From contig NC_086101.1 in the NCBI RefSeq assembly GCF_963921235.1, positions 30,132,001 to 30,196,000 on the forward strand: a stretch of 64,000 bases of DNA, written 5' to 3'. The notes beneath the pieces are model-generated. The model saw only the letters and a list, made by a program, of their open reading frames with translations, had not been told where the DNA came from and ran no database searches. Positions within the stretch are counted from its first letter, which is position 1. Every line of letters starts with the position of its first letter. This DNA is from Mobula hypostoma (lineage: Eukaryota). This document shows positions 8,946 through 33,530 of this stretch, piece after piece. Made by a program: the position numbers and the translations under genes.

Positions 8946-9029
8946 ATTTTTGTACCCCAATCACTAGCAAAGGCAAATAAGGTGGGACAGATGGAGTGGA
9001 CTAATGTTAGAGTGGGGAGGTTTTGGCTC

Positions 9030-12000: not shown

Positions 12001-14240
12001 CTGGATTGGATGTTGTGTAATGAACCAGATTTGATTAGGAAGCTTAAGTTAAAGTTACCCTTTGGAGCCAGTGATCATAATATGATAGAACCCACCCAGC
12101 AATTTGAAAGAGAGAAGCAAAAGTCAAATGTATTTGTATTACAGTGCAGTAAAGGGAATTACAGAGGTATAAGAGAGAAGACGGTTAAAGTTGATCGGAA
12201 GAGTGCACTATCAGAGTGAGAGCAGAGCAGCAATGGCTGGACTTTCTGGGTGCAATTCACAGGATGGGTATTTCCCAAAGAAGAAGTATTCTAAATGCAG
12301 GATGATGCAACCGCGACTGATAAGGGAAGTCAAAACTAACGTATAAAGAAAAGAGAAAGCACATCACGGAGCAAAAATTTGTGGGATGTTAGAGGACTGG
12401 GAAAATTTTGAAAACCAAAAGAAAGCAACTGAAAAAACCATAGGAGGGAAAAGATGAAATCTAAAGTTAAGTGAGCATATAATATCAAAGAGGTTAACAA
12501 ACATTTTTCAAATATATAAAGAGTAAAAGAGAGCGGAGAGTGGATACCATACTGCTGGAAAATGACACTGTAAAGTTTGCAAAGGGGCAAGGAAATGACG
12601 GATGAATGGATTACATATTTTGTATCATTCTTCGCTGGAAGACACTAGCATTGTGCCTTAAGTTTGATAGTGGCATGGGGCAGAAGTGCATGCAACTTAC
12701 CAAAAAGAAGGTGCTTGGGACGCTGAAAGGTCTGAAGGTAAGATAAGCCACTTGGACCAGATGGACTACACCTTAGGGTACTGAAAGAGGTGCCTGAAGA
12801 GATTGTGGATGCATTAGCAATGGTTTTTCAAGAATCACTGCAAGGTTTCAGAGGACTGGAATATTACAAATATCCCTACACTATTTTAAAAAAAACAAAG
12901 GAGTCAGAAGAAAGGAAATTTTAAGCCAGTTATCCTAACCTCAGTGGTTGGGAAGATGTTGGAGTCCATTTTTATGGAGGGTGTTTCAGGGAATGTGTAC
13001 TTGATCCAAGTGGAACTTGCAGGCACATGATAAAATAGGCCAAGGGCAGCATGGGAAATCTTTGCCTGACAAGCTTTGCAATTCTTTGAGGAAATAACAA
13101 GCAGAATATTCAAAGGAGAATCAGACGATGTTGCGTACTTAGATTTTCATAAGATTGTTGACTAGGCACTGTACGTTAGGCTGCTTAACAAGTTAAGAGC
13201 CCATGGTATTACAGGACAGATATTAGTGTGAATAGAACATTGGCTGATTGGCAGGAGGTAAAGTGTGGGTATAAAGTGAGCCTTTCCTGATTGATTGCTG
13301 GTTACTATCGTTGTTCTGCAGGGGTCAGTGTTGGGACTGCTTCTTTTTACATTACAGGTCTATGATTTGAATGATGGAGTTGATGACTTTGTAGCTAAGT
13401 TTGTGGATGATACAAATATAGGCGACTGGACAGGTCGTGTTGAAGAAGGGAGGCTGCACAGAACTTGGACGTATAAGGAGAATGGGCAAAAAAACGTGGC
13501 AAATGGAATATAATATCACAAAGTATATGGTCCCGGACTTTGCTAGAAGGAATGCAAGTGTAGACTATTTTCTAAATGGGGAGGAAATTCAAGAATCTGA
13601 GGTGCAAAGTGACTTGGGAGTCCTTGTGCAGGATTCCCTAAAGTGTGACTTCCAGTTCAAATATAAAAGCAAAGGTGTAATGCTGATGCTTTATAAGGCA
13701 CTGACGAGGCCTCATTTGGAGCATTGTGACCAGTTTTGTGCCCCTTATCTAAGAAAACATGCTGATATTGGAGAGGTTTCAAAGGAGGTTCATGAAAATT
13801 ATTCTGGGAATGAAAAGCTCATCATATGAGGAGCTTTTGATGGCTGTGGGCCTGTACTTGCTGGAAATTAGTAGATTAACGACAAATTTCATTGAAACCT
13901 ATTGAATGTTGAAATGCCTTAGTAGAGTGGATGTTTTCTGTAGGGAGGGAGTCTGGACCTGAGGTCAGAACCATGGAATAGAGGGACGTAATTTTAGAAT
14001 GCAGATGGAGAATGGAGATTTCTTTAGCCAGAGGGTGTGAAATCTGTGGAATTTGTTGTCAGAGGCAACCATGGAGGCTGGGTCATTGGGTATGTTTAAG
14101 ACAGAGGTTGATAGATTCTTTATAAGTCAGGGTGTGGAAGGTTACAGGGAGAAGTCAGTAGAATGGGGTTGTGCAGGAAATGGATCAGCAATGATCAAAT
14201 GGAAGAGCAGCTAACAGGCCAAATGGCTTAATTCTGTTCC
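9030..14240 (+). mobile_element. Near full-length decayed CR1 LINE (ORF1 SGNH, APE, RT), interrupted by hAT
   Basis: LKVLYLNAHSIWIK|VDDLVAQLE endonuclease split by the hAT insertion; QGSVLGLLLF and AKFVDDTNIG RT motifs; CR1 3' end near 14240. Confidence 0.8.
10268..11509 (-). mobile_element. Non-autonomous hAT (Charlie/Buster-like) DNA transposon
   Basis: 8-bp TSD gattaagg (10260-10267, 11510-11517); TIRs cagggatccccaa / cagcggtccccaa; hAT dimerisation remnant LLPFPTIFCEAVFSAMNATKTKLRNRLD. Carries a CR1 3' end at about 10700-10922. Confidence 0.9.
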
Positions 14241-14263
14241 TATGTCTTATGGTCTTCTGGACA

Positions 14264-14646
14264 TGTTGATTAAATACTAAGAACCTTAGCAGCTGTGTTC
14301 CTGGGGGGCGGGGGGGGGGTGTTTGACAGCCTGCCTCTGCTTTTCCAATAACCAGCACAGTTTATTATTCTTGTGTTAAAATGATTTTGTGGAATTATAG
14401 TGGGAAGTTCCAGTTCATTTATTGTTGCATTTTATCTTGGGTTGTATATTTGCTTGTGTATTTGTGGGTCACCTTAACTATAACTGTAGTGTGTGATGGT
14501 CATTCTCCCCCATCTGTGTGAGACAGAGCTGTTCTGTCTTTGGGTTATGGTGCTTGGTCTGTTTTTGTGTTTATCACTATAAAATGGTTGTAGAGTTTAA
14601 CGAGCTTCCTCATCTGTCATTATGGACCAATGCTCGCAACACAACA
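14264..14646. mobile_element. Possible solo LTR
   Basis: TGTTG...CAACA terminal inverted ends, 383 bp; no TSD found. Confidence 0.35.
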
Positions 14647-14699
14647 TTAATATACAGAAAGATCTTGAATTGCAAGGCCTTTGCTCTCTGATAATGGAA

Positions 14700-17600
14700 A
14701 CGTCAGTGGAGAGGTTAGTGAAATGTTATGTGGTACCCTTACATTCATAGTCTGAGATATTGAATAAAGGTTCTGGGATTTCTTGATGCAGCGGCACAAA
14801 ACATTGATTAGGACATACTTCCTTTTTTAGGCTTTTTTGAGGTACTAGACAGGGCTGTCCTTTAAGCCCTTTACTATTTGATATTGCCTTGGAGCCCTTG
14901 GCAATCGCTCTTCGTGATTCACCCGATATATTTGGCATTATTCGTGGGATTGAGACGCATAAGGTATCATTATTTGCAGATGACCTGTTACTATGTATCT
15001 CTAATCCAGAGAAATCCATCCCTGCTGTAATATTACTACTCACTCAGTTTAGTAGTTTTTCTGGTTATAAATTGAATCTCAATAAGAGTGAACTTTCCAT
15101 TAAATATGCAAGTTCCAATCTATAGACAATTACCATTTAGACTGGTTACCGATTATTTTACTTATTTGGGTGTTAAAATTACTAAGAAGCATAAGGATCA
15201 ATTTAAAGTTAACTTTTTACCCTTGATTGATCATGTTAAACAACTGCTTACTAAATGGTCCCCATTGTCCCTATCATTGATTGGTTGAATAATTGCAATT
15301 AAGATGATTATTTTACCTAAATTTCTGTATCTATTTCAGATAGTACCAATCTTCATCTCTAAATCCTTTTTTGATATTATTGATTCTAAAATTTCTTCAT
15401 ATATATGGCAGAATGAAAATCCTAGATTAAGTAAGAAATATTTACAGAATATTGCCAAACTTTGGATTCTATTATTGGGCAATTAATATTTGATATCTAA
15501 TGTTCCGGACACAAGATCTGGATGAAATTCAATGTCCACGATGGGTGAACCTTGAGCGTGAGCCTCTGCAGGGGTTCTCATAGGCTTCTATTTCAGGGGC
15601 TTCGCTTCCCTTTGCGTTTACTAAATTGAATAAACAAACAATCCAATAATTAAACATATAATATGAATATGGTTTCAATTTCATAAATTTTTTGGATTGA
15701 ATAAATTTATTTCATCAAGCCTTATTATATCCAATTTTTTCTTCCAACCATCCAGAACTGATCAAGCTTTTCTTTTATGGAAAACAAAAGGAATAATATG
15801 TTTTCATGATTTATTCATGGATAATTATCTCATGTCCTTTGAACAGTTGTCTAATAAATATAATTTGCATTTATCACACTTTTTCAGTTATTTACAGATT
15901 AGAAACTTTTTGAAGGTTATTTTACCTAGTTTTCCGATATCACATCAAACTGAAATTACAGAAAATTTTTTAGGTTTAAACCCCTATCAGAAGAGTTTAA
16001 TAGCAATTGTTTATGATTTAATTACAAAAATACATTTAGGTATGTCTGACAAACTTAAGGAAGAATGGGAAAGAGAACTTTAGGTACCTTTACACACAGA
16101 AAAATCAGAGAAAATTCTCCAACTAGTCAACACTTCTTCAATGTGTTCTAGACATGCTTTGATACAATTTAAGGTGGTTCATAGTGCTCATATGTCTAAG
16201 GATAAGTTAGCTCATTTTTATGGTCATATAAATCCTGTCTGTGACAGATGAAGTTCTGAGGTAGCTTCCTTGACACATATGTTCCAGTCTTGCCCTCTTT
16301 TGAAAAAATATTGGAAAGAAACTTTTGATATTATGTCAGTAGTTTTGCATATTGATTTACAACCTTATCCTATTATTGCATTTTTTGGATTAACAATAAC
16401 AGACTTTAGTCATTTATCCCCTTCAGCTTGTTGTTTGATTGCATTTCTTTCTTTAATAGCCAGAAAATCCATTTTATTTATACCATATAACAATTACAGC
16501 ATGGAAACAGGCCATCTCGGCCCTTCTAGTCCGTGCCGAACTCTTACTCTCACCTAGCCCCACCGACCTGCACTCAGACCATAACCCTCCATTCCTTTCC
16601 TGTCCATATATCTATCCAATTTAACTTTAAACGACAACATTGAACCTGCCTCAACCACTTCTGCTGGAAGCTCATTCCACACAGCTACCACTCTCTGAGT
16701 AAAGAAGTTCCTCCTCATGTTACCCCTAAATTTTTGCCCTTTAACTCTCAACTCATGTCCTCTTGTTTGAATCTCCCCCACTCTCAATGGAAAAAGCCTA
16801 TCCACGTCAACTCTATCAATCCCCCTCATAATTTTAAACACCTCTATCAAGTCCACCCTCAACCTTCTATGCTCCAAAGAAAAAAGACCTAACTTGTTCA
16901 ACATTTCTCTGTAACTTAGGAGATGAAACCCAGGCAACATTTTAGTATACCTCCTCTGTACTCTCTCAATTTTATTGACATCTTTCTATTAATTTGGTGA
17001 ACAGAACTGCACACCATACTCCAGATTTGGCCTTACCAATGCCTTATACAATTCCAACATTACATCCCAACTCCTATACTCAATGCTCTGATTTATAAAA
17101 GCCAGCATACCAAAAGCTTTCTTCACCACCCTGTCCACATGAGATTCCACCTTCAGGAAACTATGCACCATTATTCCTAGGTCCCTCTGTTCTACTGCAT
17201 TCTTCAATGCCCTGCTATTTACCATATATGTCCTATTTTCAAAATATGTCCTATTTTGATTAGTCCTACCAAAACATAGCACCTCACATTTTTCAGCATT
17301 AAACTCCATCTGCCATCTTTCAGCCCACTCTTCTAACTGGCCTAAATCTCTGTGCAGGCTTTGAAAATCTACTTCATTATCCACAACACCACCTATCTTA
17401 ATATCATCTGCATACTTATTAATCAAATTTACCACCCCATCATCCAGATCATTAATATATATGACAAACAACATTGGACCCAGTACAGATCCCTGAGGCA
17501 CACCACTACACACCATCCTCCAATCTGACACACAGTTATCTACCACTACTCTCCGGCATATCCTATCTAGCCACTGTTGAATCCATTTTACTACTTCGAT

Positions 17601-19280
17601 ATTAATGCCTAACGATTGAACTTTCCTAACCAACCTTCCCTGTGGAACCTTGTCAAAGGCCTTACTGAAGTCCATATAGACAACATCCACCACTTTACCC
17701 TCGTCAACTTTCTTAGTAACCTCATCAAAAAATTCATAAGATTTGTCAAACATAACTTTCCACGCACAAATTCATGTTGACTGTTCCTAATCAGACCCTG
17801 TCTATCCAGATAATTATATTTACTATCTCTAAGAATACTTTCCATCAATTTACCCACCACTGACATCAAACTCTCAGGCCGATAATTGCTGGGTTTACTC
17901 TTAGAACCCTTTTTATACAATGGAACCACTTGAGCAATACACCAATCCTCCGGCACCATCCCTGTTTCTAATGACATTTGAAATATTTCTGTCAGAGCCC
18001 CTGCTATTTCCACACTAACTTCCCTCAAGGTCCTAGGGAATATCTTGTCCGGACCCAGAGACGTATCCACTTTTATATTCCTTAAATGCGCCAGTACTTC
18101 CTCTTCTTTAATCGTCATACTTTCCATAACAACCCTTCTTGTTTCCTTTACTTTACACAATTCAATATCCTTCTCCTTAGTGAATACCAAAGAAAAGAAA
18201 TTGTTCAGAATCTCCCCCATCTCTTTTGGCTCCACACATAGCTGTCCACTCTGATTCTCTAAGGGACCAATTTTATCCCTCACTATCCTTTTGCTATTAC
18301 CATAACTGTAGAAACCCTTTGGATTTATTTTCACCTTACTTGCCAAAGCAGCCTCTTATCTGCTTTTAGCTTTTCTACTTTCGTTCTTAAGATTCTTTTT
18401 ACATTCTTATATTCCTCGAGCACCTCTAACTACAAGCTGCCTATACTTATTGAAGATCCCTGTCTTTTTTCGAACCAAGTTTCCAATATCCCTTGAAAAC
18501 CATGGCTCTCTCAAATTTTTAACCTCTCCTTTCAACCTAACAGGAACATAAAGATCCTGTACCCTCAAAATTTCACCTTTAAATGACCTTCATTTCTCTA
18601 TTACATCCATCCCATAAAACAAATTGTCCCAATATACTCCTTCTAAATCCTTTTGCATCTCCTCAAAGTTAGCCTTTCTCCAATCAAGAATCTCAACACT
18701 AGGTCCAGTCCTATCCTTCTCCATAATTATATTGAAACTAATGGTATTGTGATCACTGGACCCGAAGTGCTCCCCACCACGTACCTTTCCATTTAAATGG
18801 AAAGATTCCAATCCCACTACAACATTTCAATGGTTTTCCCAAACTATAACATGTTTAAATTTGGAAAAAAAAAATTGGGTGTGGTACCATTGATCCTTGG
18901 GCTAAATTTGAAGAAACTTGGAGGCCATTTATTCAATATTTTCATATGATGTAAGTTGACCCTTTCAGAATCCTTTTTAATAACTTTTTGTTTGTGTACA
19001 GAGGAGCGGAGTTAATGACAAATAATGATCTTAACTGATGAAATGTGGCAGCCCAGACTTTGTTTCGTTTTGTCTTTTTTTTAGTGTAAGGTGTAAATTT
19101 TTTTTCATTCTTTTTCATGTTCAGCTAGTAAGAGATTGGGAGGTTTAAATTAAATATGTTACTCTGAGTCTGTGCCTGTATACGTTAGCTGTTATTAATG
19201 TAATCCTGATCTGTTTGTATCATGATCATTGTTATGTTTATCAATTTGAAGCTCATTAAAAAAGATTGAAAAAGAAAGGA
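14700..19280 (+). mobile_element. L1-clade LINE ORF2 3' half, split by a CR1 insertion
   Basis: GTRQGCPLSPLLF, KVSLFADDLLL, FSGYKLNLNKS, HMFQSCP. Resumes after about 18790 with FKWKDSNP...W..F and a 3' UTR. Confidence 0.85.
16478..18790 (-). mobile_element. CR1 LINE ORF2 (5'-truncated) inserted in L1
   Basis: YMDFSKAFDKVP, GVPQGSVLGPMLF, KYADDIKIGG; 3' end at about 16478. Confidence 0.9.
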
Positions 19281-19354
19281 AGGACACAGTTGTACTGTAT
19301 AGAGTAATGCTGCAGGAAAGATATGTTGGCATTAAAAAGAATGAAGAAGAGATA

Positions 19355-19560
19355 CATCAACACACACAAAATTCTGGAGGAACTCAGAATGCCAGGCAGC
19401 ATCTGTGAGGAAAAATGTACAGTCGACATTGTGGGACTGCCGAAGAGTTTCGGCCGGAAATATTGACTGTCCTTTTTGCCATAGATGCTGCCTGGCCTGC
19501 TGAGTTCCTCCAACATTTTGAGTGTGTTGCTCAGATTTCCAGCATCTGCAGATTTTTCTT
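19355..19560. mobile_element. Short inverted (hairpin) Penelope pLTR derivative
   Basis: Left arm caacacacacaaaattctggaggaactcag... is inverted relative to right arm ...ctgagttcctccaacattttgagtgtgttg; approximate TSD aagagat. Confidence 0.65.
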
Positions 19561-19997
19561 ATAAGAGATCCAGCAGGCTGCTTTCTGTAGTGCCATTCTG
19601 TATGCAAAACTTGCATAGGCTTTGTCTATTCCCAATGGAACATAGAACATAGGAACATAGTTATAAAAGGTGATGAACTGCCAAGGGGCTCAGGTGTTTT
19701 AGGACATTTTTTTCCAAGTGCAAGGGAACCGGAGATTCAAGGACAGTGAAGAGAAATATAAAAGAGATCTGAATATTATCAGATCTGACTGTTGTCTTTA
19801 TCTCAAATGAGCTGCCAAATGAAGTGGCAGAGGCAGATACAATTCAACACTTTAAAGTCATTTGTGCAAGGATTAAATAGGAAAGGTGTAGAGGGAAATA
19901 GGATACAATGTGGGCAAATGGCATCGCAGTTGGAATGGATGAGCTATGCTGAAGGGGTCAACTTCGGTCTCATATGAAGCTGAATCTCAAGATTGTT

Positions 19998-20135
19998 TCT
20001 AAAAGCACAAACACAAGGAAGTCTGCAGATGCTGGAAATTCAAGCAACACACACAAAATGCTGGTGGAGCTCAGCAGGTCAGGCAGCATCTATAGGAAGA
20101 GGTACAGTCGACGTTTTGTGCCGAGACTCTTTGTC
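19998..20135 (-). mobile_element. Penelope pLTR end, truncated within the hammerhead
   Basis: gtctgcagatgctggaaattcaagcaacacac...agtcgacgtttt. Confidence 0.7.
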
Positions 20136-20289
20136 CTGTGTGTGGTGCTTAAGATTGTTTCTGTTGTTCTCTCTTGATTATTTCAAATTCACTCGAAGCA
20201 CTGATACTGGTTACCATACAGTACACTGTGGAAAAGTACTTGCTAAACAAAAGGCAGTTGTGTGATCCTTGTAACATTCAAACAATCTG

Positions 20290-20520
20290 CTTATTTTATT
20301 GAGCTGTACTGTGTGGAGTAGGTCCTTCTGGCACTTTGAGCCAATCACTCCTTAACTATGATTAACCCTAACTTAATCTCAGGACAATTTACAATGAGCA
20401 AGTAACCTACCCAGTACATCTTTGAACTATGGGAGGAAACCCAAAGGCCCAGAGAAAACCAATGTGTTCCACGAGGAAAATGTACAGAGTCTCCTTATGG
20501 AACAGTGCCGAAAATGAAGT
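20290..20520 (-). mobile_element. V-SINE (HE1-like)
   Basis: Reverse complement of the V-domain (gggaggaaacc...) with a CR1-like tail. Confidence 0.65.
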
Positions 20521-22817
20521 CCAAGGTCCAGAATGCAAAAATTTGTTCCTATCTTTTATCTTGTCATCTTGTTTGTTAGGTTGACACTACAATTACAAGG
20601 CACTATGAGAAACTGTCAGATTAATGGGCAATGTAAAGTTACACTTGTTCGAAAGCTTGATAAAAACCAAGTTAGTCAATTCCTTTGTGTGAAACTTATA
20701 TTTATGTACTGTATTTTCAAGGACTATTGTGAGAGTACATAGTTGAAGTATCTGTCTTGCAAAACCTCAGTGCAAATAACAATTGTGTTAACTGGGGCCT
20801 CTCAAAGAAATGAGACAGGAACTGCCTGACAAAAGACAATGCAGTGAGCTCTCAGAAGGTCATCGGAAGTTCATTAGTGAGAACAACAGATGGCTAGGGT
20901 AACTATATTTAGCTTATGTAATACCTGACCTCAGCATTTGAGCAAACAGAGAGGGAAGTATGCTTTAAAAATGGAGAAATGGCTACAGGGTACTGCTAGT
21001 AAATGTGAAGGAGACAGACAGACAACTAGAGAGGCGAGACAGACCACCACCTACATAGCACTGTTAAGTCCTTTTTTTATTTTAATTGTGTATTCTTGTA
21101 AAAATAATGTGTTGTTAATTTTTAACTTTTTCTTGTAAATGCTGCATATTCAATGCTATGTTTATGATGCAAGTTTTTATAGCACCTCCTTACATGTACT
21201 TATGCACATTCAAAGTTAAATTTATTATTAGAGTACATGCATGTTACCACATACAACCCTGACATTCCATTTTTGTGGGTATACTTAGCAAATCTATAAA
21301 ACAGTAACTGTAAACAAACTGCAAATGCAGATACTGTTTAAATAGTAGATGATAATAAACTTGAATTTGACTTGACATTGGGAAACAGGGGGGGAACCTA
21401 GAAGCAGGAATTGTCAGAGCTGAATCTCTGGTAGATACTGTAATGAAAGAAAATCTCTGACAGAATTATGGATTCAAAGTAACTTTCCAACAGTCCTCCT
21501 ATATCTCTTGATACCAGCATTGTTTAAGCTCTATCATCATTGTCAAAGGAACTGTAGTCACTGATAATAAAATAACGGGGTCCAGACCACATACTCTCAG
21601 GACTCAAGCAGTCCATTTATTTTGCATGCGCCCAAGGAAAACAGCATGGGCCACTGTCACCCACTTGTTATGAAGTATGAACCGAAAACTGCTATTTCAG
21701 TAACGAATTGGCATATCAGTTATGGATATTGATTATTAACCATACATGTTTGAATTCCTTACTTCCAAGATAAAACGCCATTCACAATAGAGATGTTGGA
21801 TTCAATGGAAACTTCAGGCAAACAGCAATGTTATTTAAAGTTTAGTAAGGACAATAGAGCCTTTGTTGAGTATATTTCACAGTCTTTTGTTATCTCATTG
21901 TACTTTGGCACTTGCTATTGTGTAAAGGGACACCTTTTTAGGTTGACATTTCTGGAAGTCTCACTACAGATGCCTCATTCATTTGTCTTGAGTACACATT
22001 GCCACAGTTACCCAAGCCTATCTTATCTATAGCAAGCAGAGGTGATTCCAGCAATCCCACTTCAATGAGCTTGCTTGATTACAACTTCCTCATGATGTCC
22101 TTGCCTTACTGCAGCTTCCAAATAACCATATATATTATCTATTTCATGACTTCCCTCCAGAGCTCTGAGGTAAGGAGATTCAACATTCAATTTGAACTGT
22201 TATTGCTTGAATGAAATCACCGGAGAGAGAGTTACTGGTAGATACAAAGCAGATTCTGTATTCGACAAAATAAGGTTCAGCAGGCATCATACGGATGGAG
22301 ACACGTTTGGTGGAAAGCTCTGCTGCCAACATGGGGTTCGGTTATTTATTTGCTGCACACACAAAGGACAATCTATATTTACAAAGTATAGATAATGCTT
22401 TCTTTTGAAGCTACATACAAACTTCACACCTCCCGATTACATCCATCCCATCACAGCCAGCAGCATCAGGACTGTTATTCAGGAATGCATTGTTCCAAAC
22501 TGAATCCACAATACATTTATTTGGTATTTTACATGCTTAAAATGAAGGACAATCCATATTTACAATATATAGAATATGTTGTCTTTGAAACTGCATGCAA
22601 ACCTCACACCTTCTTACCAGCAGCATCTGGACTGGTATTCTGGTATTCACAGTTTTTAGAAAATGCATTGTAACAAATGGATTGGGATTCTGATATTCAC
22701 AGCTTTTAGGAAATGCATTGTCAAGGATCAGAAGACTGGTGGCTGAAGCTATTTACAAAGTGTTAATGACCTAAACACAAAAATTACTTTAACAGTCCTC
22801 CTGAAGAAATAGGGCAG

Positions 22818-22991
22818 GTTGAATATATTTTCACAGATAAAACTGGAACCTTGACGGAGAATAACATGCAGTTTATCGAGTGCTGTATTGATGGCCACGT
22901 GCACGTGTCTCAGTCTCTGTCCAATGGCCAGAGCTTCTACAGCGACGCAGCAATTGATTTTATTGATGCACCTGTTGCATTAGTGGATCAG
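22818..22991 (+). pseudogene. ATP11A: Isolated ATP11A-like P4-ATPase exon (phosphorylation domain, DKTGT)
   Basis: Stop-free 174 nt: [58 protein letters not shown]. Preceded in frame by EEIGQ, flanked by cag| and |gtaaga. DKTGT at 22836-22850. The paralog call (11A versus 11B/11C) is from recalled sequence. No other clear ATP11 exons were seen. Confidence 0.75.
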
Positions 22992-23097
22992 GTAAGAAAC
23001 TGACCCAAGGAAAACACTGAGCTATTGAATTGCAATTTCTCTGGAATATCATTGAACTGCAGAAAACCAAAAGCAAAATGTTGCTTTTGATTCTTTA

Positions 23098-23650
23098 TCT
23101 TCAGCATTGTGTGCAGTTTTGGTCCCCTAATCTGAGGAAAGACATTCTTGCCATAGAGGGAGTACAAAGAAGGTTCACCAGATTGATTCCTGGGATGGCA
23201 GGACTTTCATATGAAGAAAGACTTGATCGACTAGGCTTATACTCGCTGGAATTTAGAAGATTGAGGGGGGATCTTATTGAAACGTATAACATTCTAAAGG
23301 GATTGGACAGGCTAGATGCGGGAAGATTGTTCCCGAAGCTGGGGAAGTCCAGAACGAGGGGTCACAGTTTGAGGATAAAGGGGAAGCCTTTTAGGACCGA
23401 GATGAGGGAAAAAACTTCTTCACACAGAGAGTGGTGAATCTGTGGAATTCTCTGCCACAAGAAACAGTTGAGGCCAGTTCATTAGCTATATTTAGGAGGG
23501 AGTTAGATATGGCCCTTGTGGCTAAAGGGATCAGGGGTTATGGAGAGAACGCAGGTACAGGGTTCTGAGTTGGATGATCAGCCATGATCATAGTGAATGG
23601 CGGTGCAGGCTTGAAGGGCTGAATGGCCTACTCCTGCACCTATTTTCTGT
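23098..23650 (+). mobile_element. CR1 LINE 3' fragment
   Basis: HCVQFWSPNLRKDILAIEGVQRRFTRLIPGM...RTRGHSLRI, followed by the 3' UTR. Confidence 0.9.
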
Positions 23651-24469
23651 TTCCTCTTGGACCTCCTGGACAAAAATAAATTTGTACCAGGAAAGGCCAA
23701 CCTAGGAGGATCTACTCAAATAGGGCAGCAAAAACGCTCTGCCTTGAAAATTCCCGCAATGTTTTTGTGTTCCTCAATATCTACCCTAGCATTCCCTAAT
23801 CGTTACCTACCGAATATTAAGCAGAGAGGCTGTTCCAGAAATTTGTCGGCACTTTCCCTGCAGACTGATTCCAGCTTAATCACATTCCTTTGTCTTTACC
23901 CCTTCATTCTCTGGTCACTGAAACTCTCCTTCCAGGAGCACCCACAGGTCCTCTCATTAATGTATGGGAAGGGGTTGGGGTGGCCTCTATGTAAGTGTCT
24001 GCAAGGACCTGTGCCCGGTGGCACCCCCTTCTGAACTGTCCGGTTGATCACTGGCCCAACTGCTGAAAGGGCCCAGCTCCTCAGACTGGGGGTGACTGCT
24101 TTCGGATGCCATGTGCCATATGCCATCAAAGTTGTGGAACTTTCTGCCTCTGCTTTAACTTAATATCCCTCCCCATCTATTTTCTAATATTTTTCTATTC
24201 TATGCCATTAAACTAATCATCTACCTTCAGTAACCAGCCTTCTTTACAGAATGCCACCATCATCACACTTTAGCAGGTTATTCATGGTTTTCCATCATGC
24301 TCTTGGCGTTTTCTGCCTTTGTGTTTCCTCCAGGTATGTTTTCTTCAGCTGTGGTCAGGTCTGGCATGGCCGGCTGGTGTTCCTCTCTTAGGCTTTCTGC
24401 AATTACATGTTTATTGGGTACACTTGATCCCCCGCTCTGTCTGTAGGAGCAACAGGAGGGTGAGTTGTA

Positions 24470-26369
24470 TGCTTTAACCTGAGTCCAGTGTTTCCACTGG
24501 CTGCCTCACCGAGTCTGCACACAGGCACACGTATCATTGGTTAAGTGTACCGTCTGTGGTCCTAACCACCTGGGGGAAAACCCCGGCCTTTCTGGCAGCA
24601 CCCTCACATTGACTTGGTCACTGGGCTGTGGAAGGACTATCTCCTTTCCCTCTGGCTCCCTGATCAGCGATTCGCTGCTATTGTTTCACTCAGTCCTTCA
24701 ACACTTTTAAGTTGGTTACAAAGGTCTTTCGCATATTGTGTCATTCTATCCCTGTAAGCCCCAGGCTCCCCGCAACCCACAATTACCCCATAGGGGAGTT
24801 GCATTGCTCGCCCCATCAATAATTCGTAGGAGCTGAGACCCAATGTGTGGTTCGGGGTTGCACGCATCAGGATTCCTAGTAATACATCAACCCATGTCTA
24901 TCCTGTCTTTCCTGTCTCAGCTATAGCTTTGACTAACACATTCTTGATTGTTCGGTTCATCCTTTCTACCATTCCTGAACTCTGGGGGGTGGTAAGGTAC
25001 ATGGAACTGTTGTCAAATCCCTAGCAGTCAGCACATTTCCTTCATGACTTTCCCCGTGAAATGTGGTCCCTGATCTGAATCCACCTGGACTGGAGTTCCT
25101 CACCTTGGGAGGATTTCCTGAGCTAGGATCCATGCAGCAGTCCTTTGTTGGGAAAGCCTTTATCCACCAGGTGAAGTGATCCATTATTACAAGACAGTAG
25201 CTTTTCCCCCTGCTCTTTGGCAGAGACCCTGTGAAGTCTATCTGGATGTTTTCCCAGTGTCCCCTCAGCCGAGGCTGATTTGCCAGCTGTAGCTTTCTGC
25301 CCTTACCAGGGTTATGCTGGGCACAAATGATACAACAACTACAGAATTTCTCAACATCCCTGCGCATCCCTGGCCACCACCAGTCCTGCCGGAGGGTTGT
25401 GATCATGCTTGGCCTTCCCTGATGCATTGCCCCATGGTATAACTTCAATAGTATCTGCCTAATACATAGTGGGGCCACCGTGACTCCTTCCTCTCCGTGT
25501 GTCCAGCACTCGTCTGGTCCCTCCTTTGCCCGTTTTCTCCTCCATTTTTCCTTCTCTTCTGCCTCCACCTCTTCATAGAATTTTACTAAATTGGCTTCTC
25601 TCGTTCCTTCCTGCAGGCTTCCAATTTCAATTGCCTCTTGTTCCTCTGCTGCCTTCTTCGCAGCAACATCTGCCCACTCATTTCCGTTCCGTTTCATGCT
25701 CTCACCTTTCTGGTGTTTTTGTTTCTTTGCTGTACCCTGAACAGTGGTCAGTGCATCAGTGTTTATAGAGTACTGCTTCTGGGGTTTATACAGACCTTCC
25801 TCTATTTTAACTGGGTTTATCTTTACTCGACCACAATCTTGCTTGTGTCTAGCCCACACTGCTGGGAACTGCTGACAAAGTAACCCATAGACACCATCCT
25901 GGCTCCAGTCTCTGGTGATCGGGGCAGCTGCGACTACACTAGCCAGGTTGTGTATTCTGTTGGTTGTATGCGTTTGCTGCCTCTGAATTGTCCATATTAT
26001 TTCTCGCTTTCCCGAATCTTTAACAGCTCCTGCTTCCCTTAGGATGTCTATTCCAAGGATAGTGCTCTGGATATTTGGGCATACTCAGAAATACACTGGA
26101 AACTGCACTGCCCCGATTTCTAGTATTTGTGACTCACTTCTCTGTTTTCCATCTTACTTCCCTAATATAAATGGCCTGTCCGGTTGTTGGCAAGGGTAAG
26201 TCTGTTATCGATACCGATGCCCCTGTGTCCACTAAAATATTGCATTGCTGTCCCCCTAATGTTGCTGTTGTGTATATCCCCGGGTCACCAGCGCTGGTAG
26301 TGGGGCCCGCCGCCACATCTTTTTCTGACCTAGGAGTTGTCTTTACTTGCTCTATGATCTGATTGACAG
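24470..26369 (-). pseudogene. pol: ERV pro-pol remnant lacking RT core
   Basis: PR, then FPAVWARHKQDCGRV..KQYSI joined directly to the RNase H tail and integrase; stops and frameshifts are present. Confidence 0.8.
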
Positions 26370-27243
26370 TCAGAGTGGAGTGAGAGATTGTGTGTCTGCT
26401 GTGAAGTTCACCTGTTTTTCTTTCCTCTGTTTTGTGCACTGCCTCCAACCAGGTCCCAATAGGCCGCACTTGTAGCATATCAACTTCTTTACCCTCCCAC
26501 GTTTATTCCAGCAATTCCTTGCTTCGTGCCTTGACTGTCGGCAAGCAAAACAAACCCACTGGGACATCACAGCAGCTGCATCCACTATAGCCACTTTACG
26601 ATCTCTCTTGCACTTTCTTCGGTTTATCTCACTGGCCCAGAAAACTATCGCAGAGTAGGTCAACCCCACCATTATGACTAAATCTAAAACTTCCTGATGG
26701 ACTGAGCTCAGGCCTTCCTTCAGCATTTTCAGGAAGACTGGGTCGTCCCTCCTTGGATTATCCAACTCTGAATACTCCTCATATGCCCAATACTTATGTT
26801 CTGCATGATCCATAGCCGCCTCATCAGCGTTTTGAATCACTGCCGTTATCATTCCCCAGTTACGCTCACCTCCCCCCAGTCACTGCCTCACTTCCATATT
26901 TAAGAAAAGCATTATTTTTCTTTATTGTTGGCATTCCCATAGTTGTCCTGGTACCACCCCACACCCCTTGGGCCATCCTGTCCCACATATTCCTCGGGCA
27001 CTTCTCTTTTAACAGCACGTGTACATCTTTAGGGTGCATCTGGTGAATTTCAACCATTTCCTCAAGCTTACGCCAGAATTCTGAATTCCCACATGTGACT
27101 TTACGTGAGGGCAAATTAGACAAAATGCTCTGTTTCTCCCCAGGGGTGAAGGGCTTATGAATGGTCGTAATCAAGGTCAAGGGCTGGCTCAGATCATCGG
27201 GGTTCTCAAAAGACGGGTACCAGTTAAACAACACATACTTCAA
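26370..27243 (-). pseudogene. gag: ERV gag (capsid, MHR-like, two zinc knuckles), frameshifted
   Basis: KLEEMVEIHQMHPKDVHVLL; IQNADEAAMDHAEHK MHR-like; CFACRQSRHEARNC and CYKCGLLGPGWRQC. Confidence 0.75.
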
Positions 27244-27245
27244 AC

Positions 27246-28140
27246 CGCAGAGTATGTGTTCAGCAGTCCAGAGATTACTATCTTGGAGGTCCTGTTTTTC
27301 AATGATTTACCTAAAATAAAGTCTCTCTTCAGGACCTCCTCACCTTTCCTACCCATGCAATTAGTGCGAATATGTACCAAGACCTCTGGCTGCTCCCCCC
27401 CACCCCCACCCACTTCTTTCAGAATGCCAGGACCCGAGCTGAGACATCCCTGTCCCTGACAGTTTGGAGGCAATATGCCATCTAGGTGTCTCTGTCGCTC
27501 CCACAGAATCTCATCTCTGTTCCTCTGACTATGGAATCTCCTATCACCACTCTTCACTCTTTACCAGTGCCCATGGTAAATGCTACAGATGCAATTACTG
27601 CACTTTCCCCCTTGTAGGTCATCCTTCTGAAATTTATCCAAAGTGATGTACCTAATATTGAGGGAAACAGCACAGAGGTACTCCACACTGGCTACCCATT
27701 CCCCTTCCTCCTCCTGATAGTCACGCAATTACATGCCTCCTTCAAGCTAGAGGTGACTACCTCCCATTAGGTCCCATTTATCACTTCATCAGTCTCCCGT
27801 ATGAGCCAAAGTTCACCAAGCTGCACCTGTGGTTCCTTAACACTTTCTGTGAGGAGTTGTGGCTTGGTGCACCTGGTGCACATGTGTTTAGCTGGGAGGC
27901 TGGAGGTTTTCCAGAATTCGCACATCTCATCCACAGAACAAAACCCTTCCCTCGAGTCATTCTCACTGCACTAGCTGTGCCCTAGCAGTGATGGAATGAA
28001 AAAATAAAGAGGCCCAAGACTGACCTCGCCTAAGCTTGCTAAGTCAAATCCACTCCAACGCTGGCTCACTCGCACAATACTTCGTATGCGCCTGTCTTAT
28101 TTTTATTCATCCTTTCTAATTAATCCACTTCACCGATTGG
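27246..28140 (-). mobile_element. CR1 5' portion (5'UTR, ORF1 zinc finger/SGNH)
   Basis: VIGDSIVRGT...EQPEVLVHI.TN..RTSKIVISGLL SGNH motifs. Confidence 0.75.
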
Positions 28141-29399
28141 GTGTAGTCCTACTCAATCCTATGTAGTCTACAACCCAATGTTACGAAACAGGGAATTTTC
28201 CAGATCCCAGCAAACTTTATCCTGTGATCTATTCTCTCCCGTTCTACTTGACCTAGGTCTTCTCAACACTATTCCTTCCAAATTACCTCACTGTTTGTCT
28301 GTCACCCAGATCCTTTCTCCTTTCTAACCTGTTCCCATCTAACATCTTTCCTTTATCTTGTGCCACTGATCAACTTCTTTATCAGAATTCATAATTTGCA
28401 GCTTGCTGTAGTTTGCACATCACCTTCCAGCCTGTCACTACCTCATACTTTCCTACCCCACCTACCTCTACCTGCCCATCACCCAGATCCACCTATCTCT
28501 TTCCAGATCTTGTTTCACCCTCCCCTTTCTTCTTCATAATGGCCGTCTCTCCTCAAAACCATCAGAACCACTATAAAGTACAGATCTTGAAGTTGGAGTT
28601 GACAAAGACAAGCACAGAGTGCACGTTGGTGTCTGACACTGCCTGCCTGTATTTGAGCAATCTTCCTCTCCCTTTGGCTAGCTGCTGTCAGAGGAAAGCA
28701 CAGGAACCTTGGGCTCCACGATGCAAGGATTGGTCAGCAAGGCTCGTGGACTCATCTTGGGGGACTTTGAGGTTCATGTTGCATGTATTTCTGGATCCTG
28801 GTTACACTCTTTTGCTGTTTTTGGGTAGTTTGATCGTGGCATTCAGAGCAGATGGGGGCACCTCAGCGAAGATGGGCTCTGTGCCCTGCAGTCAGCTGGC
28901 AACACAGAACTGGACTTATCCTAATAAATTGAATACTCCTAGTTTGATGTTGAGATTCCAGGTGTTGCTCGATCACTTTTTGCAATTTGAATAAACAGTT
29001 CTTTTATTCGTTCATTGGATGCATCATGTTTTCTTTGAACAAATTCCATGGTGTTTCTTTGTTTTGTGGCTGCTGTGGGAGGATGAATCTCAGAGCTGTA
29101 TTCTGTATACATACTTAGATAATAAATATACTTTGATTCTTTGAAATTGTCAAAAGTATCCTCCCTTGAGAGTTTCTGTCTGTTCCGCTACCCTCCTATA
29201 GTAAAAACAAGAGAAAATCTGCAGATGTTGGAAAAGCTTCCGTTTTTTCACCAATCTACTTCCCAGCTCTTTACTTCATCCCTCCCCCTTCAGGTGTTAT
29301 CTATCACCATGTGTTTCTGTCTCCACTCCCCCACTTTTTAAACCTTTTTCTCTCCAGTCCTGCTGAAGGTTTTCCGGCGGAAACATCATCTTTTTTCTA

Positions 29400-31110
29400 T
29401 ACACACATCAAAGTTGCTGGCGAACGCAGCAGGCCAGGCAGCATCTCTAGGAAGAGGTACAGTCGAAGTTTCGGGTCAAGACCCTTCGTCGGAACTACAG
29501 AAACAAGAGCTAGTAAGAGATTTGAAAGTGGGAGGCGGAGGGGGAGATCCAAAATGATAGGAGAAGACAGGAGGGGGAGGGGTGGAGCCGAGAGCTGGAC
29601 AGGTGATTGGTAAAAGGGATATGAGAGGATCATGGGACAGGAGGCCCAGGGAGAAGGAAAAGGGGGAGGGGGGAGGAAAAACCCAGAGGATGGGCAAGGG
29701 GTAGAGTGAGACAGACACCTCCCTCCCCTTTCTAGATCTTTCTGTCTCTATCTCTGGAGACAGCTTAACTACTGATGTGTACTATAAGCATACGGACTCT
29801 CACAGCTACCTGGACTTTCCCTCTTTCCACCCTGTCTCTTGCAAAAATGCCATCACCTACTTGCAATTCCTCCATCTCCGCCGCATCCAGATGAGGCTTT
29901 TCATTCTAGGACGAAGGAGATGTCTCCCTTTTTTAAAGAAAGGGGCTTCCCTTCCTCCACCATCAACTCTGCTCTCAAACGCATCTCTCCTATTTCACGC
30001 ACATCTGCTCTCACTCCATCCTCCCGCTACCCCACTAGGAATAAGGTTCCCCTTGTCCTAACCTGCCATCCCACCAGCCTCCGGGTCCAACATATAATTC
30101 TCCGTAACTTCCGCCACCTCTAACAGGATCCCACCACTAAGCACATCTATCCTTCCCTCACTTTTCTGCTTTCTGCAGTGATCACTCCCTGTGCGATTCC
30201 CTTGTCCATTCGTTCCCCCCATCCCTTCTCACCAATCTCCCTCCCGGCATTTATCCTTGTAAGCGGAACAAGTGCTACACAGGCCCTTACACTTCCTCCC
30301 TCACCACCATTCAGGGCCCCAGGCAGTCCTTCCAGGTGAGGTGACACTTCACCTGTGAGTCTGCCGGGGTGATGTACTGCGTCCGGTGCTCCCGGTGCGG
30401 TCTTCTATATACTGGCGAGACATGATGCAGGCTGGGAGACCATTTCGCTGAACACATACGGTTTATGTGCCAGAGAAAGCAGGATCTCCCAGTGGCCACA
30501 CAATTTAATTCCACATCCCATTCCCATTCTGACATGTCTATCCACGGCCTTCTCTACTGTAAAGAAGAAGCCACACTCAGGTTGGAGGAACAACACCTTA
30601 TATTCCGACTGTGTAGCCTCCAACCTGATGGCATGAACATTGACTTCTCTAATTTCAGTTAATGCCCCTCCTCCCCTTCACACCACACCCCTTATTTTAT
30701 TTATTTATTTATCTATCTATCTATTTATTTATTTAATATTTTTAATATATTTTTAATTTTCCTCCCTCACTTTTTTTCTACCTCTGTCCCTCTCACTAAA
30801 ATTCCTTGCCTGCTCTCCACCCTCCAGGCTCATCTCCCCCCTTTTCTTTCTCCCCAGGCTTCCCGTCCATGATCCTCTCTCTTCTCCAGCCTGGTATCCC
30901 TTTTGCCCATCAACTTTCCAGCTGTTAGATCCACCCCTCCCCTCCTGCCTTCTTCTATCATTTCGGATCTTCGCTCCCTCTCCCACTTTCAAATCTCTGA
31001 CTATCTCTTCCTTCATTTAGTCCTGGCGAAGGGTCCCAGCCCAAAATGTCGTTTGTACTTCTCCCTGTAGATGCTGACTGGACTGCTGCGTTTACTAGCA
31101 TTTTGTGTGT
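29400..31110 (+). mobile_element. Neptune-type Penelope: inverted 5' pLTR, RT C-terminus, GIY-YIG endonuclease, pLTR
   Basis: LPFLDLSV..DVYYKHTDSHSYLD; HFTCESAGVMYCVRCSRCGLLYTGET; LEEQHLIFRL. Both hammerheads are degenerate. Confidence 0.85.
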
Positions 31111-31139
31111 GGTGTTAGGAGAAACAAAACTATAGTTCA

Positions 31140-32130
31140 GTTAGTCCGACGTCAGTGGATGGGAATGTGTTGAATTTGATTGTTAAGGATGTGGTTTTGG
31201 GGTACTTGGTGGGCTGAAGTCAATACAGTTCCCTTAAGGGTACTTGGATTTTTCAGCAGGCCTTTGACAAGGTGCCACACATGAGGCTGTTTAACAAATC
31301 CATGGTATTATAGGAAAGATGCTAGTAGAGAAAGGGCATTGCCTGCTTGGCAGCAGGCAAGAAGTGGGAGTAATGGAAAGCAGTTTATCTTGGCTGCCAG
31401 TGTCTACTCTGTTTTGAAACTGCTTTCTATATGATACCTCAATGGTTTGGATGATAGAATTGATGGTTTTGAGACCCAATTTGCTGATGATATAAACATT
31501 GGTGGAGGTGCTGGTTGTTTTGAGGAAGAATAGAGGATACAGACAGATTTAGACAGATTAGGAAAATGAGCAAAGAAATGGCAAATACAATACAGTTTTG
31601 GGAATTAGGAGAAGAAATAAAAGCATTGACTATTTTCTAAATGGAGCAAAAATTTTAAAAAAGGATTTTGGGTCCTCATGTAGGGATTGCCAAAGGATAA
31701 TTTCCAGGTTGAGTCGTTAGTGAGGATGGCAAATGTGATGTTAGCATTTATTTTGAGAAGATAAAAGTAAGAATGTAATATTGAAGCTTTATAACACCCT
31801 CTGAGGCCTCAGGTGGAGCATTGTGAGCAGGTTTGGACCTTTTATTTAAGAAAGGATGTGCTGATATTGGAGTAGGTGCAAAGGAAGATCAGCTAAATTC
31901 TTCTGGGACTGATGAATCTGTGGAATTCATTGCCATAAGCGATTGTGCAGGCCAAGTTATTGGGCATATTTATGGCAGAGGTTGATGAGCTTTGGTTTAG
32001 TCAGGGTATGGGTGGGTATAATGAGAAGACAGGAGATTGGGGCTGGGAGGGAAATGGATCAGCTATGATGAAATGGTGGAGAAGAACCAATGGGACAAAT
32101 GGTCTTATTCTGCTCCTATGTCTTATGGTA
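31140..32130 (+). mobile_element. CR1 RT/3' fragment, decayed
   Basis: LDFQQAFDKVPH and FADDINIGG remnants, CR1 3' UTR. Confidence 0.65.
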
Positions 32131-32169
32131 TTTTATGAACTTCCAATCTTGTAGCTTGACCTTAGCCCG

Positions 32170-33130
32170 ATGCTGACAGTGCACGAGGCTAAGGATAAAT
32201 GCATCCCAGTGGGAATGCAAGGAGAAATGAAATGGCTTGTGAATGGGAGCTTGAGATGGCCACTGTGGACGGAGCACAGATGGTCAGTGAAGTAGTTGCC
32301 TGGTCTGTGCCTGGTGTCGCCAATATACAGCAGACTATATCGGAGGAGGTTCTCTGCCTCATCAGAAAGGCCAGTTTAGGTCAGTGGATGACGGTAAAGG
32401 AGGTGTTGTAGGGACAAGAGTTGTATTTCTTACTGCTGTAAGGGAAAATACTGCTGGAATATGGAAGAATGGGTGGGGAAGGGTGAATGAGGTTGGTGGC
32501 CATGCAGAAGGTGATCCCTGTGAAAAGCACAGGGATGTGAGAAGGCGGAAATGTGACAGGTGGTGTGGTTGTGTAGCAATGGATGGATATGATGAAGAAT
32601 GATATGCTAGATGCATGGGCTGATGTGATGAAAGATGAGGATCAAAGGAAATCTGCTTGCCTGTGAGGAAGTAGTGCAGGACTAGAAGTGTGGGAAAATG
32701 GAGGAGATGTCACTGAGGAGTCATTAATGTCAGACCGTTGGAAGCCACACTTCTGGAACAGAAAACCATCTCTTCGAGCAGATGTGTTAGAGATAGAGAA
32801 ACCAAGAAAGCCATGGTATCACTACACAAGACAGGGTGAGAGAAGGTGTAGTCTAGCTAGATGATGGATTTGATGTGTTTATAGTACGTTTGTAAATGTT
32901 AGGTGGTATTTTGTCTTCTGAGATGATCTGGATAGTGGGGAAATGTATCAGAAATGCTCTATGTGAATTTGAGAACTGAGTGGGTTAGTAGAAAAATTGA
33001 CAAAACAGCTCCACACAGATATAGTACCAATGCAGTTATCAATGTACTGGAGAAAGAAAGAGGGAGTAGAGCCAGTAATAAGCACTGTACCAAGTTGCTA
33101 TTAAAAAGGGATGCATAGCTGGGTCACATG
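32170..33130 (-). mobile_element. Old Penelope RT/EN fragment
   Basis: The reverse strand gives decayed NIYK..LDYTFSHP and CIYWRHQAQ-like PLE motifs. Confidence 0.5.
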
Positions 33131-33261
33131 TGGGTGTCCATGGCTTCAGGTATTTTTTGTATAAAATGAGAAGAATAAAAAAAAAGTTTGTCTTGATTTA
33201 AAAACGTGTGGAGAAGAGTGAGGAGAGTGTTGGTGGCAGATAACACTCTCCCCAGTAATGA

Positions 33262-33530
33262 GGGTGTTAGCTCAACGGTATTACAACCTGGTGTTCTGGA
33301 GTTCAATTCTAGTACGTGCTATAAGAAGTCTGTACATCCTCCCTTTGGAATGTATGGGTTTTCCTGAGTGTTCTGGTTTCCTCCCAGAGTCTAAAGATAT
33401 ATTGGGTAAGTTAATTGGTTATTGTAAGTCGTCCTGTGATTAGTTTAGGGTTAATTATGTTTGTCAGGTGTTGTTGGGGCAGCATGGCTGGAAGGGCCTG
33501 CCCCATGCTGTATTGCTAAATAAAATGAAA
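33262..33530 (+). mobile_element. V-SINE (HE1-like)
   Basis: B-box-like gagttcaattc, V-domain gggttttcctgagtgttctggtttcctcccagagtctaaag, tail gaagggcctg..gctgtat. Confidence 0.7.

What the first reader, a model, noticed from the sequence alone, without database searches (positions are those of the whole stretch)
22796..22997. Orphan ATP11A-like flippase exon carrying the catalytic DKTGT motif inside MHC intron 1
Seen: a 174-nt stop-free, phase 0-0 segment bounded by cag| and |gtaaga, encoding [30 protein letters not shown].., preceded in frame by EEIGQ. It is missed by the ORF track. Established: DKTGT is the P-type ATPase phosphorylation site and the flanks are ATP11-type (about 33/58 identical to human ATP11A as I recall it). 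No other clear ATP11 exons were found in 64 kb. It sits in non-repetitive sequence next to an ERV relic. Inference: a genomic exon was moved by segmental duplication or TE capture, or it is an interleaved or mis-assembled locus. Its intactness among decayed neighbours suggests a recent origin or constraint.
Basis: partly seen in the sequence, partly recalled or inferred. Interest (0 to 1): 0.7.

Follow-up and report, generated by a model that had tools for sequence, protein, structure and literature searches.

The report
Half-spliced flippase RNA copied by LINE
The lone flippase exon is part of an 850-base, apparently dead insert in a ray's immune-gene intron, made of the spliced join of two ATP11A exons, the start of the next intron and the tail of a jumping gene, so a jumping-gene enzyme likely copied a half-spliced message from the intact ATP11A gene 2.5 million bases away.

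Summary
The exon is real and sits in intron 1 of an MHC class I-like gene, but it is not an orphan and not a DNA duplication. It is the middle of an ~850-nt insert (22802-23653): the last 16 nt of the preceding ATP11A exon spliced to the 174-nt DKTGT exon, 111 nt of the next intron, then a CR1-type LINE 3' end with its tail. TCCT is duplicated at both ends, inside an LTR retroelement whose other copies are uninterrupted there. The parent ATP11A lies 2.45 Mb away and has a LINE with the same 5' junction in that intron. A second organism's DNA holds the same insertion junction, so mis-assembly is very unlikely. The copy decays neutrally: 3 of 3 changes are non-synonymous, the second organism's copy reads a stop, and splicing into the MHC transcript would give a stop. 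One twist: the copy's LINE differs from the parent's at five linked subfamily sites, suggesting a homology-guided template switch (tree tests did not reject one origin). The scan noted the same architecture before on other DNA (MNS1 in this genome, PCNX2 in another). Mechanistically neat, functionally inert.

The parts
22802..22817 (+). Last 16 nt of the preceding ATP11A exon (exon 12 by inferred count; EELGQ, read EEIGQ here), joined by a spliced junction; 5' end of the insert, first T shared with the target
   Evidence: 15 of 16 match to the parent exon end at C12:32616080, best of all CAG|GT sites in 200 kb (15 of 20 against 12 for the next); parent mRNA-like contigs align from exactly 22802 in 3 of 4 RNA-guess runs laid, the fourth starts inside the exon; second organism reads the parent's T at 22809
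22818..22991 (+). Copy of the ATP11A DKTGT exon (exon 13 by inferred count; 174 nt)
   Evidence: 172 of 174 nt identical to C12:32610129-32610302; both changes non-synonymous, V>I and E>Q
22992..23102 (+). First 111 nt of the next ATP11A intron, retained, with its GTAAGA donor
   Evidence: 106 of 111 identical to the parent intron
23103..23653 (+). 3' end of a CR1-type LINE: end of ORF2, 3' hairpin region and start of the 8-nt tail repeat; same 5' junction as the LINE in the parent intron but another subfamily haplotype
   Evidence: 39 other copies at 94-96% among 3,340 candidates, 40 scored; junction and tails; haplotypes; hairpin z = -2.74. The name CR1 rests on recalled ORF2-end and tail features
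22799..22802 (.). Left copy of the 4-nt target duplication TCCT
   Evidence: Sequence; uninterrupted site in other copies
23652..23655 (.). Right copy of the target duplication TCCT; its first two letters also fit the LINE tail (2-nt microhomology)
22198..22794 (-). LTR (TG...CA) of a decayed ERV-like LTR retroelement, its 3' LTR; the insert lies in the purine tract beside it
   Evidence: 38 other loci at 77-90%; flanks of 19 copies; 27 of 31 loci join this LTR end directly to the sequence that follows the insert here
23652..27261 (-). Internal region of the same decayed element (gag-, protease- and integrase-like pieces), antisense to the insert
   Evidence: Matches to other copies; Pfam Integrase_H2C2 E 2e-15, weak aspartic-protease hits
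3884..63956 (+). Host MHC class I-like gene: leader 3884-3935 (phase 1), alpha-1 about 33870-34133, alpha-2 about 42947-43222, alpha-3 about 60798-61067, TM from about 63849; the insert is in the 30-kb first intron
   Evidence: Pfam MHC_I and C1-set; tblastn with 5 of 14 homologues; splice sites

Best explanation
The exon is part of a single ~850-nt insert holding a spliced ATP11A exon-exon junction, a retained intron start and a LINE tail between 4-nt direct repeats, which was likely written by a CR1-type LINE reverse transcriptase that began on a LINE RNA and likely switched onto a half-spliced ATP11A pre-mRNA. Shown: the anatomy, the parent, the uninterrupted site in other copies of the host retroelement, presence in a second organism, non-synonymous decay. 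Inferred steps: (1) a 5'-truncated LINE first landed in sense in the ATP11A intron, 111 nt behind the DKTGT exon; (2) a LINE protein-RNA complex of a sister subfamily nicked the purine tract of an old LTR element 2.45 Mb away and primed on its own tail (2-nt microhomology); (3) the cDNA paired with the 550-nt homologous LINE piece in an ATP11A transcript whose upstream intron was already removed and whose downstream intron was not, probably a nascent one near its gene; any unpaired cDNA end would be trimmed to the edge of the homology, which would put the switch where it is seen (23103-23145); (4) synthesis went on through 111 nt of intron, the exon and 16 nt of the previous exon, and the 5' end was joined with 1 nt of microhomology; (5) the copy has drifted since, without function. 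The core (LINE-primed copy of half-spliced RNA) I put at about 0.9; this version with a switch at 0.55, the version with the parent's own tail at 0.33.
For: Spliced junction: homology to the parent's genomic DNA starts exactly at the acceptor CAG, and the 16 nt before it match the previous exon's end 5,777 nt away; parent mRNA-like contigs align from exactly 22802. 3' end: homology stops at the LINE tail. Target: 27 of 31 other loci join the LTR end directly to the sequence after the insert, 4 differ by deletions or lack the LTR end, none has an insert; TCCT is doubled here. Real and inherited: junction bridged in organism A (99-nt contig, 0 differences) and organism B (141-nt contigs in 2 runs of one sample). 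Switch: copy and parent LINE differ at 23146, 23229, 23275, 23546, 23553; of 58 other copies 13 carry the copy's five states, 25 the parent's five, 20 are mixed, r2 0.31-0.58; three of these variants are common in unselected contigs of run X1 (69%, 56%, 41% of depth); no derived state private to copy plus parent; 4 of the 29 copies nearest the window's LINE share its tail variant, the parent does not, and two of them are its sisters in the tree; two starred branches separate copy and parent in the full tree. Both LINEs have equally long end branches (0.028, 0.027), close to the 2.3% per lineage of the unique intron (5 of 111), so neither looks recently overwritten. Dead.
Against: AU tests did not reject a common origin of the two LINE pieces (p 0.158 on all columns; p 0.207 without CpG columns, where no starred branch separates them). 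The 58 comparison copies were picked by likeness to the copy or to the parent, which sharpens the contrast. Copy and parent share minority states at 23246 and 23293. Pairwise distance (33 of 539) fits either history. A 4-nt repeat is short: in 45 family copies the same loose search gave 3-4 nt in 28, none in 6, 5-8 nt in 11, and short ones are often chance. The removed intron has CAGGTTG at both ends, so a DNA-level slip is not strictly excluded. Nearness to the parent (0.14% of the genome) is one post hoc observation.
Confidence: 0.55

Rival explanations
1. 5' transduction through the parent's own intronic LINE tail: the LINE enzyme recognised the hairpin and repeat inside the half-spliced ATP11A transcript and primed there; one of the two LINE pieces was later overwritten by gene conversion from a sister subfamily, or the five differences are parallel changes.
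For: Identical 5' junction of the LINE in copy and parent; 3' end at the tail; one step fewer at insertion; AU tests do not reject one origin; the same layout is described for SVA (PMC12593883, passages).
Against: Five linked subfamily differences across 23146-23553 and the tail variant; no private shared change; neither LINE has the short branch expected after a late conversion.
Confidence: 0.33
2. DNA-level local duplication (or a LINE cDNA invading the genomic LINE in the ATP11A intron and copying DNA), with the 5.8-kb intron lost by a slip at the 7-nt microhomology CAGGTTG at its two ends.
For: The microhomology exists; parent and copy are 2.45 Mb apart on one contig.
Against: The jump would have to hit both splice sites exactly, which RNA gives for free; no flanking DNA is shared beyond the LINE tail or upstream of the exon; ends look like target-primed insertion.
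Confidence: 0.06
3. The LTR element captured the ATP11A RNA by template switching during its own replication (LTR-mediated retroposition).
For: The insert lies inside an LTR element; the route is described in animals (PMC5131818, passages).
Against: The insert is antisense to the element; nothing of the element is replaced but target letters are duplicated, whereas the paper's cases replace internal sequence and share a median 6 nt of microsimilarity; it sits in the purine tract beside the 3' LTR; it ends in a LINE tail; no second copy among 19 candidates.
Confidence: 0.03
4. A functional or selected cassette exon (MHC-flippase chimera or regulatory poison exon), or an assembly error.
For: Sense to the MHC-like gene, strong donor kept, frame open in this genome.
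Against: Joined to the phase-1 leader, either possible exon start gives a stop within 2 or 6 codons; 3 of 3 changes non-synonymous; organism B's copy reads TAG at 22869-22871 plus further changes (one contig, depth 4.6); junction present in two organisms.
Confidence: 0.03

Closest known systems
SVA 5' transductions by canonical splicing followed by intron read-through (UQCRC1, LINC02916; PMC12593883, passages read)
   Same: Spliced host exons, then retained intron up to a retroelement in that intron, ending at the element's 3' end, inside a target duplication.
   Different: Here the element is a 5'-truncated CR1-type LINE with a hairpin-repeat tail, not a poly(A) SVA moved by L1; the piece is internal (about exons 12-13); the element's haplotype does not match the one in the parent intron.
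mRNA/LINE-1 5' chimeras by template switch, RNA ligation or trans-splicing (bioRxiv 10.1101/2025.02.02.635956, passages read)
   Same: Host exons in sense 5' of a LINE 3' part in one insertion; some cases lack a matching source LINE in the gene.
   Different: Those are L1 and mostly first exons joined at splice sites; here the join reproduces an existing intron-LINE junction, pointing to 550 nt of homology as the guide.
Stringent LINEs (CR1, L2) and their SINE partners (PMC3747384, PMC8665684, PMC5470649, passages; PMC4176376, abstract; PMC4245944, passages)
   Same: Mobilised RNA ends in the LINE's own 3' structure; short target duplication (about 5 nt reported for ZfL2-1); microhomologies at both ends.
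   Different: The passenger is host pre-mRNA in one copy, not an amplified SINE.
LTR-mediated retrocopies (Tan et al. 2016, PMC5131818, passages read)
   Same: Partial host RNA copy found inside an LTR element.
   Different: Antisense to the element, target duplicated instead of internal sequence replaced, LINE tail present.
ATP11A, P4-ATPase flippase (P0001)
   Same: The exon carries the DKTGT phosphorylation motif, 94% identical to stingray ATP11A.
   Different: 63 of about 1,195 codons, no start, no membrane segments; cannot be an enzyme.

Membership tests
Semi-processed retrocopy (RNA-derived gene fragment) | At least one intron removed exactly at its splice sites | tested here: met
   caveat: 7-nt microhomology at the intron ends
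Semi-processed retrocopy (RNA-derived gene fragment) | At least one intron or intron part retained | tested here: met
   111 nt at 106 of 111 identity
Semi-processed retrocopy (RNA-derived gene fragment) | Multi-exon parent elsewhere in the genome | tested here: met
   28 ordered exon hits over C12:32524300-32660566; first 13 residues not found
Target-primed LINE insertion | Target-site duplication against an uninterrupted site | tested here: met
   TCCT doubled; 27 of 31 loci uninterrupted; only 4 nt, and the left flank has one C fewer than most copies
Target-primed LINE insertion | 3' end at the LINE tail, 5' truncation with microhomology | tested here: met
L1-type processed pseudogene | Poly(A) tail and 10-20 nt duplication | tested here: not met
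   No poly(A); 4-nt repeat
CR1 clade of LINEs | 3' hairpin followed by a short (8-nt) tandem repeat | tested here: met
   Hairpin z -2.74, 2 of 200 shuffles as stable; 8-nt tail repeat in family copies; feature from PMC8665684 passages
CR1 clade of LINEs | Reverse-transcriptase phylogeny places the family in CR1 | not tested
   No RT tree built; the ORF2 end of L054 had no Pfam hit; the clade name is recalled
5' transduction in the strict sense (element in the parent intron is the source) | Element in the copy descends from the element in the parent locus | tested here: inconclusive
   Same junction, but five linked differences; AU p 0.158 and 0.207
LTR-mediated retrocopy | Passenger replaces internal sequence, in the element's sense, with microsimilarity at both switches | tested here: not met
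Segmental duplication | Co-linear genomic homology with introns on both sides | tested here: not met
   No upstream intron homology; 834 nt only
Functional cassette exon of the MHC-like gene | In-frame inclusion or purifying selection | tested here: not met
Functional cassette exon of the MHC-like gene | Spliced reads that include the copy | not testable with these tools
   Only contigs of guessed RNA runs were available

The most novel reading that the evidence does not exclude
Truncated LINE pieces in introns act as landing pads: the cDNA of an active, tail-specific LINE pairs with the homologous piece in a nascent, half-spliced transcript still near its gene and carries on along the host RNA. 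This would let 'stringent' LINEs copy host exons without ever priming on host RNA, and would leave two marks, both seen here: a LINE haplotype that differs from the one in the parent intron, and an insertion close to the parent gene.
Probability: 0.35. Interest if true: 0.6.

Novelty: new variant of a known kind. Interest (0 to 1): 0.35.

Why it matters
The copy itself likely does nothing. Its worth is as a readable record of mechanism. CR1-type LINEs are held to need their own 3' structure and so to make few gene copies (PMC5470649, passages), yet cartilaginous fishes have many retrocopies (14,081, 5.4% of loci; bioRxiv 10.64898/2026.06.26.734816, passages). A half-spliced copy ending in a LINE tail shows one way round the rule, and the haplotype mismatch plus the short distance to the parent give two countable predictions that separate 'own tail' from 'template switch' in a genome-wide survey. 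It is also a presence/absence marker for ray phylogeny (seen in two organisms, not seen in a third).

Tried and rejected
Other ATP11 exons in the window: none. Further copies of the insert: none among 19 candidates; the other 10 hits were 48-72% paralogous ATPase exons, not examined further. The 12 other MHC-like alpha-1 hits are 29-44% identical, so the insert is not from a recent MHC duplication. A 12-nt match at 21489-21500 to the left junction: no role found. Selection: three changes are too few for dN/dS; no synonymous change among 3 has chance 0.50, so the result is 'no sign of constraint'. Tree tests of LINE origin: inconclusive. Target-duplication survey: weak, much chance signal. Expression: no RNA holder on record; five guessed-RNA runs showed only parent-type spliced contigs in the four laid (X18, X17, X13, X14), which is no evidence on the copy because contigs drop rare forms. 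The right junction and the LINE haplotypes in other organisms could not be read: contigs break at the repeat. In organism C one 1,514-nt contig matches 22815-23092 and runs on unlike the window on both sides, read as the parent without the LINE; no contig with the copy junction was listed, which does not prove absence. Run X1 may be the window's source sample and is not counted as independent. Literature: searches listed no paper describing a CR1-tailed semi-processed copy with a subfamily switch; the library lacks most subscription papers, Suh 2015 was not held and is known only through citing passages; no supplements were read. (MHC lineage) was seen as a listing only and not followed.

Full report
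1. Observation. Window 22818-22991 is a 174-nt open stretch between CAG and GTAAGA that reads [30 protein letters not shown]...VDQ, with EEIGQ in frame before it. The best of 416 protein hits is stingray ATP11A at 94%, mammalian ATP11A is about 66%; solved ATP11C structures match at E 2e-14. tblastn with 4 of the 120 listed proteins finds no second ATP11 exon in the window. The host is an MHC class I-like gene on the same strand, leader 3884-3935 and alpha-1 from about 33870, so 'intron 1' holds; one database isoform models an extra 16 codons at 4212-4259. By protein likeness the genome is a ray close to Mobula. The surroundings are not unique sequence: an LTR ends 24 nt before the exon and a LINE starts 111 nt after it.

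2. Parent. A search of the own genome gives one close match, C12:32610129-32610305 on the minus strand, 2.45 Mb from the window. In 200 kb around it, stingray ATP11A gives 28 ordered exon hits from residue 14 to 1195. Genomic homology between copy and parent runs 22815-23648 (834 nt, 94%) and begins exactly at the parent's acceptor CAG.

3. The spliced junction. Upstream of the exon the copy does not continue into the parent's intron. Its 16 nt at 22802-22817 match the end of the previous exon, 5,777 nt away, at 15 of 16; this was the best of all CAG|GT sites in the 200 kb. Contigs of guessed RNA runs that carry the parent's spliced message align to the window from exactly 22802 (X18, X17, X14; X13 starts inside the exon) and leave it at the donor. 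In organism B the copy reads the parent's letter at the one mismatch (22809). Caveat: the lost intron has CAGGTTG at both ends, so a DNA slip could in principle give the same join.

4. The ends. After the exon come 111 nt of intron (106 identical) and 550 nt of LINE with the same 5' junction as the LINE in the parent's intron; homology stops at the LINE tail. The tail region folds as a hairpin (z -2.74) and family copies end in an 8-nt repeat, the structure described for CR1 (PMC8665684, passages); the label CR1 is otherwise recalled. The insert interrupts the purine tract beside the 3' LTR of a decayed ERV-like element on the minus strand. Of 31 other loci, 27 join the LTR end directly to the sequence that follows the insert, 4 have deletions or lack the LTR end, none has an insert; TCCT is doubled around the insert, with 1 nt (5') and 2 nt (3') shared with the insert's ends. 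Four letters are weak alone: a loose search in 45 of the 58 family copies gave 3-4 nt in 28, none in 6 and 5-8 nt in 11.

5. Real, and how old. The left junction is bridged by a contig in organism A (X1, possibly the source sample) and by 141-nt contigs in organism B (X5, X6, one sample, another study). In organism C one long contig matches only 22815-23092 and runs on unlike the window, which I read as the parent without the LINE; absence of the copy there is not proven. Divergence is about 2% per lineage (exon part 3 of 190 on the copy's side, intron 5 of 111, LINE end branches 0.027-0.028).

6. No sign of function. All 3 coding changes are non-synonymous (L>I, V>I, E>Q); staying stop-free has chance 0.81-0.88 and no synonymous change 0.50. 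Organism B's copy reads TAG at 22869-22871 and has two further amino-acid changes (one contig at depth 4.6, which the tool warns may err). Spliced to the phase-1 leader, an exon starting at 22818 or at 22796 stops within 2 or 6 codons. Expression of the copy was not testable.

7. Whose LINE tail? If the parent's own intronic LINE had been copied, the two pieces should be sisters. They differ at 33 of 539 columns and share no private change. At five sites they carry opposite linked states; among 58 other copies 13 have all five of the copy's, 25 all five of the parent's, 20 are mixed. Three of the variants are common in unselected contigs. Four of the 29 copies nearest the window's LINE share its tail variant. 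Against this: the 58 were chosen by likeness to one or the other; copy and parent share two minority states; AU tests did not reject one clade (p 0.158; p 0.207 without CpG columns). I infer a homology-guided switch (0.55) over own-tail priming with later conversion (0.33). A switch with trimming of the unpaired cDNA end would fall at the 5' edge of the homology, as seen (before 23146); this step is my inference. The half-spliced template and the 2.45-Mb distance (0.14% of the genome, post hoc) both fit a nascent transcript.

8. Rivals. DNA duplication with a microhomology slip (0.06), capture by the LTR element (0.03; antisense, nothing replaced, unlike the cases in PMC5131818, passages), function or mis-assembly (0.03).

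9. Known kin. The layout matches SVA 5' transductions with canonical splicing and intron read-through (PMC12593883, passages) and mRNA/LINE-1 chimeras (10.1101/2025.02.02.635956, passages). It lacks the poly(A) and longer duplication of L1-made insertions (PMC5110952, passages). Tail-specific LINEs are held to limit retrocopy formation (PMC5470649, PMC3747384, passages; PMC4176376, abstract), with about 5-nt overhangs for ZfL2-1 (PMC4245944, passages), while cartilaginous fishes have many retrocopies (10.64898/2026.06.26.734816, passages). Searches listed no description of this variant; coverage is partial and no supplements were read. Earlier scan notes describe the same architecture for MNS1 (this genome) and PCNX2 (another genome); I did not test them, and two of the notes led me to PMC12593883 and PMC4245944.

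10. Verdict. A dead, half-spliced retro-fragment of ATP11A with a LINE tail: a new variant of a known kind, interest 0.35. What lifts it above routine is the LINE haplotype mismatch together with the local insertion, which make the template-switch route countable genome-wide.

Noticed in passing
G000:C12:28.87-32.0 Mb (window included): Ten of 13 alpha-1 hits of MHC class I-like genes lie in this stretch, beside ATP11A; the other nine are only 29-44% identical to the window's gene, so this is an old, diverse class I-like cluster whose lineage and link to the MHC were not worked out.
   Followed up: no
window 4212-4259: A database isoform of the Mobula birostris orthologue has 16 extra residues between leader and alpha-1 that match here at 16 of 16, but the flanks show no clear AG/GT sites; it may be a modelling quirk.
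   Followed up: partly
window 22198-27261: Decayed LTR element family with many copies (770 candidates): gag-like frame with two CCHC-like motifs, protease and integrase pieces, no reverse-transcriptase hit in this copy's frames; four other copies show a primer-site-like motif beside the LTR (recalled as tRNA-Leu type). ERV or Gypsy not decided; the window's copy showed no second LTR.
   Followed up: partly
L002:854-1395 (parent intron LINE): The parent's LINE mixes states of the two subfamily groups at several polymorphic sites, and 20 of 58 family copies have mixed haplotypes, hinting at recombination or a graded series of source elements.
   Followed up: partly
window 9116-9831 and 27261-27964: Two diverged copies (66%) of another repeat in opposite orientation; one abuts the gag end of the LTR element.
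   Followed up: no
window 61743-62097: A short region with a near-palindromic arrangement of a SINE/LINE-like repeat: open frames on both strands translate to almost the same peptide.
   Followed up: no
X6 record 6 laid on window 22815-22849: A contig of organism B matches only the first 35 nt of the exon and runs on unlike it on both sides; probably a paralogous ATP11 exon.
   Followed up: no
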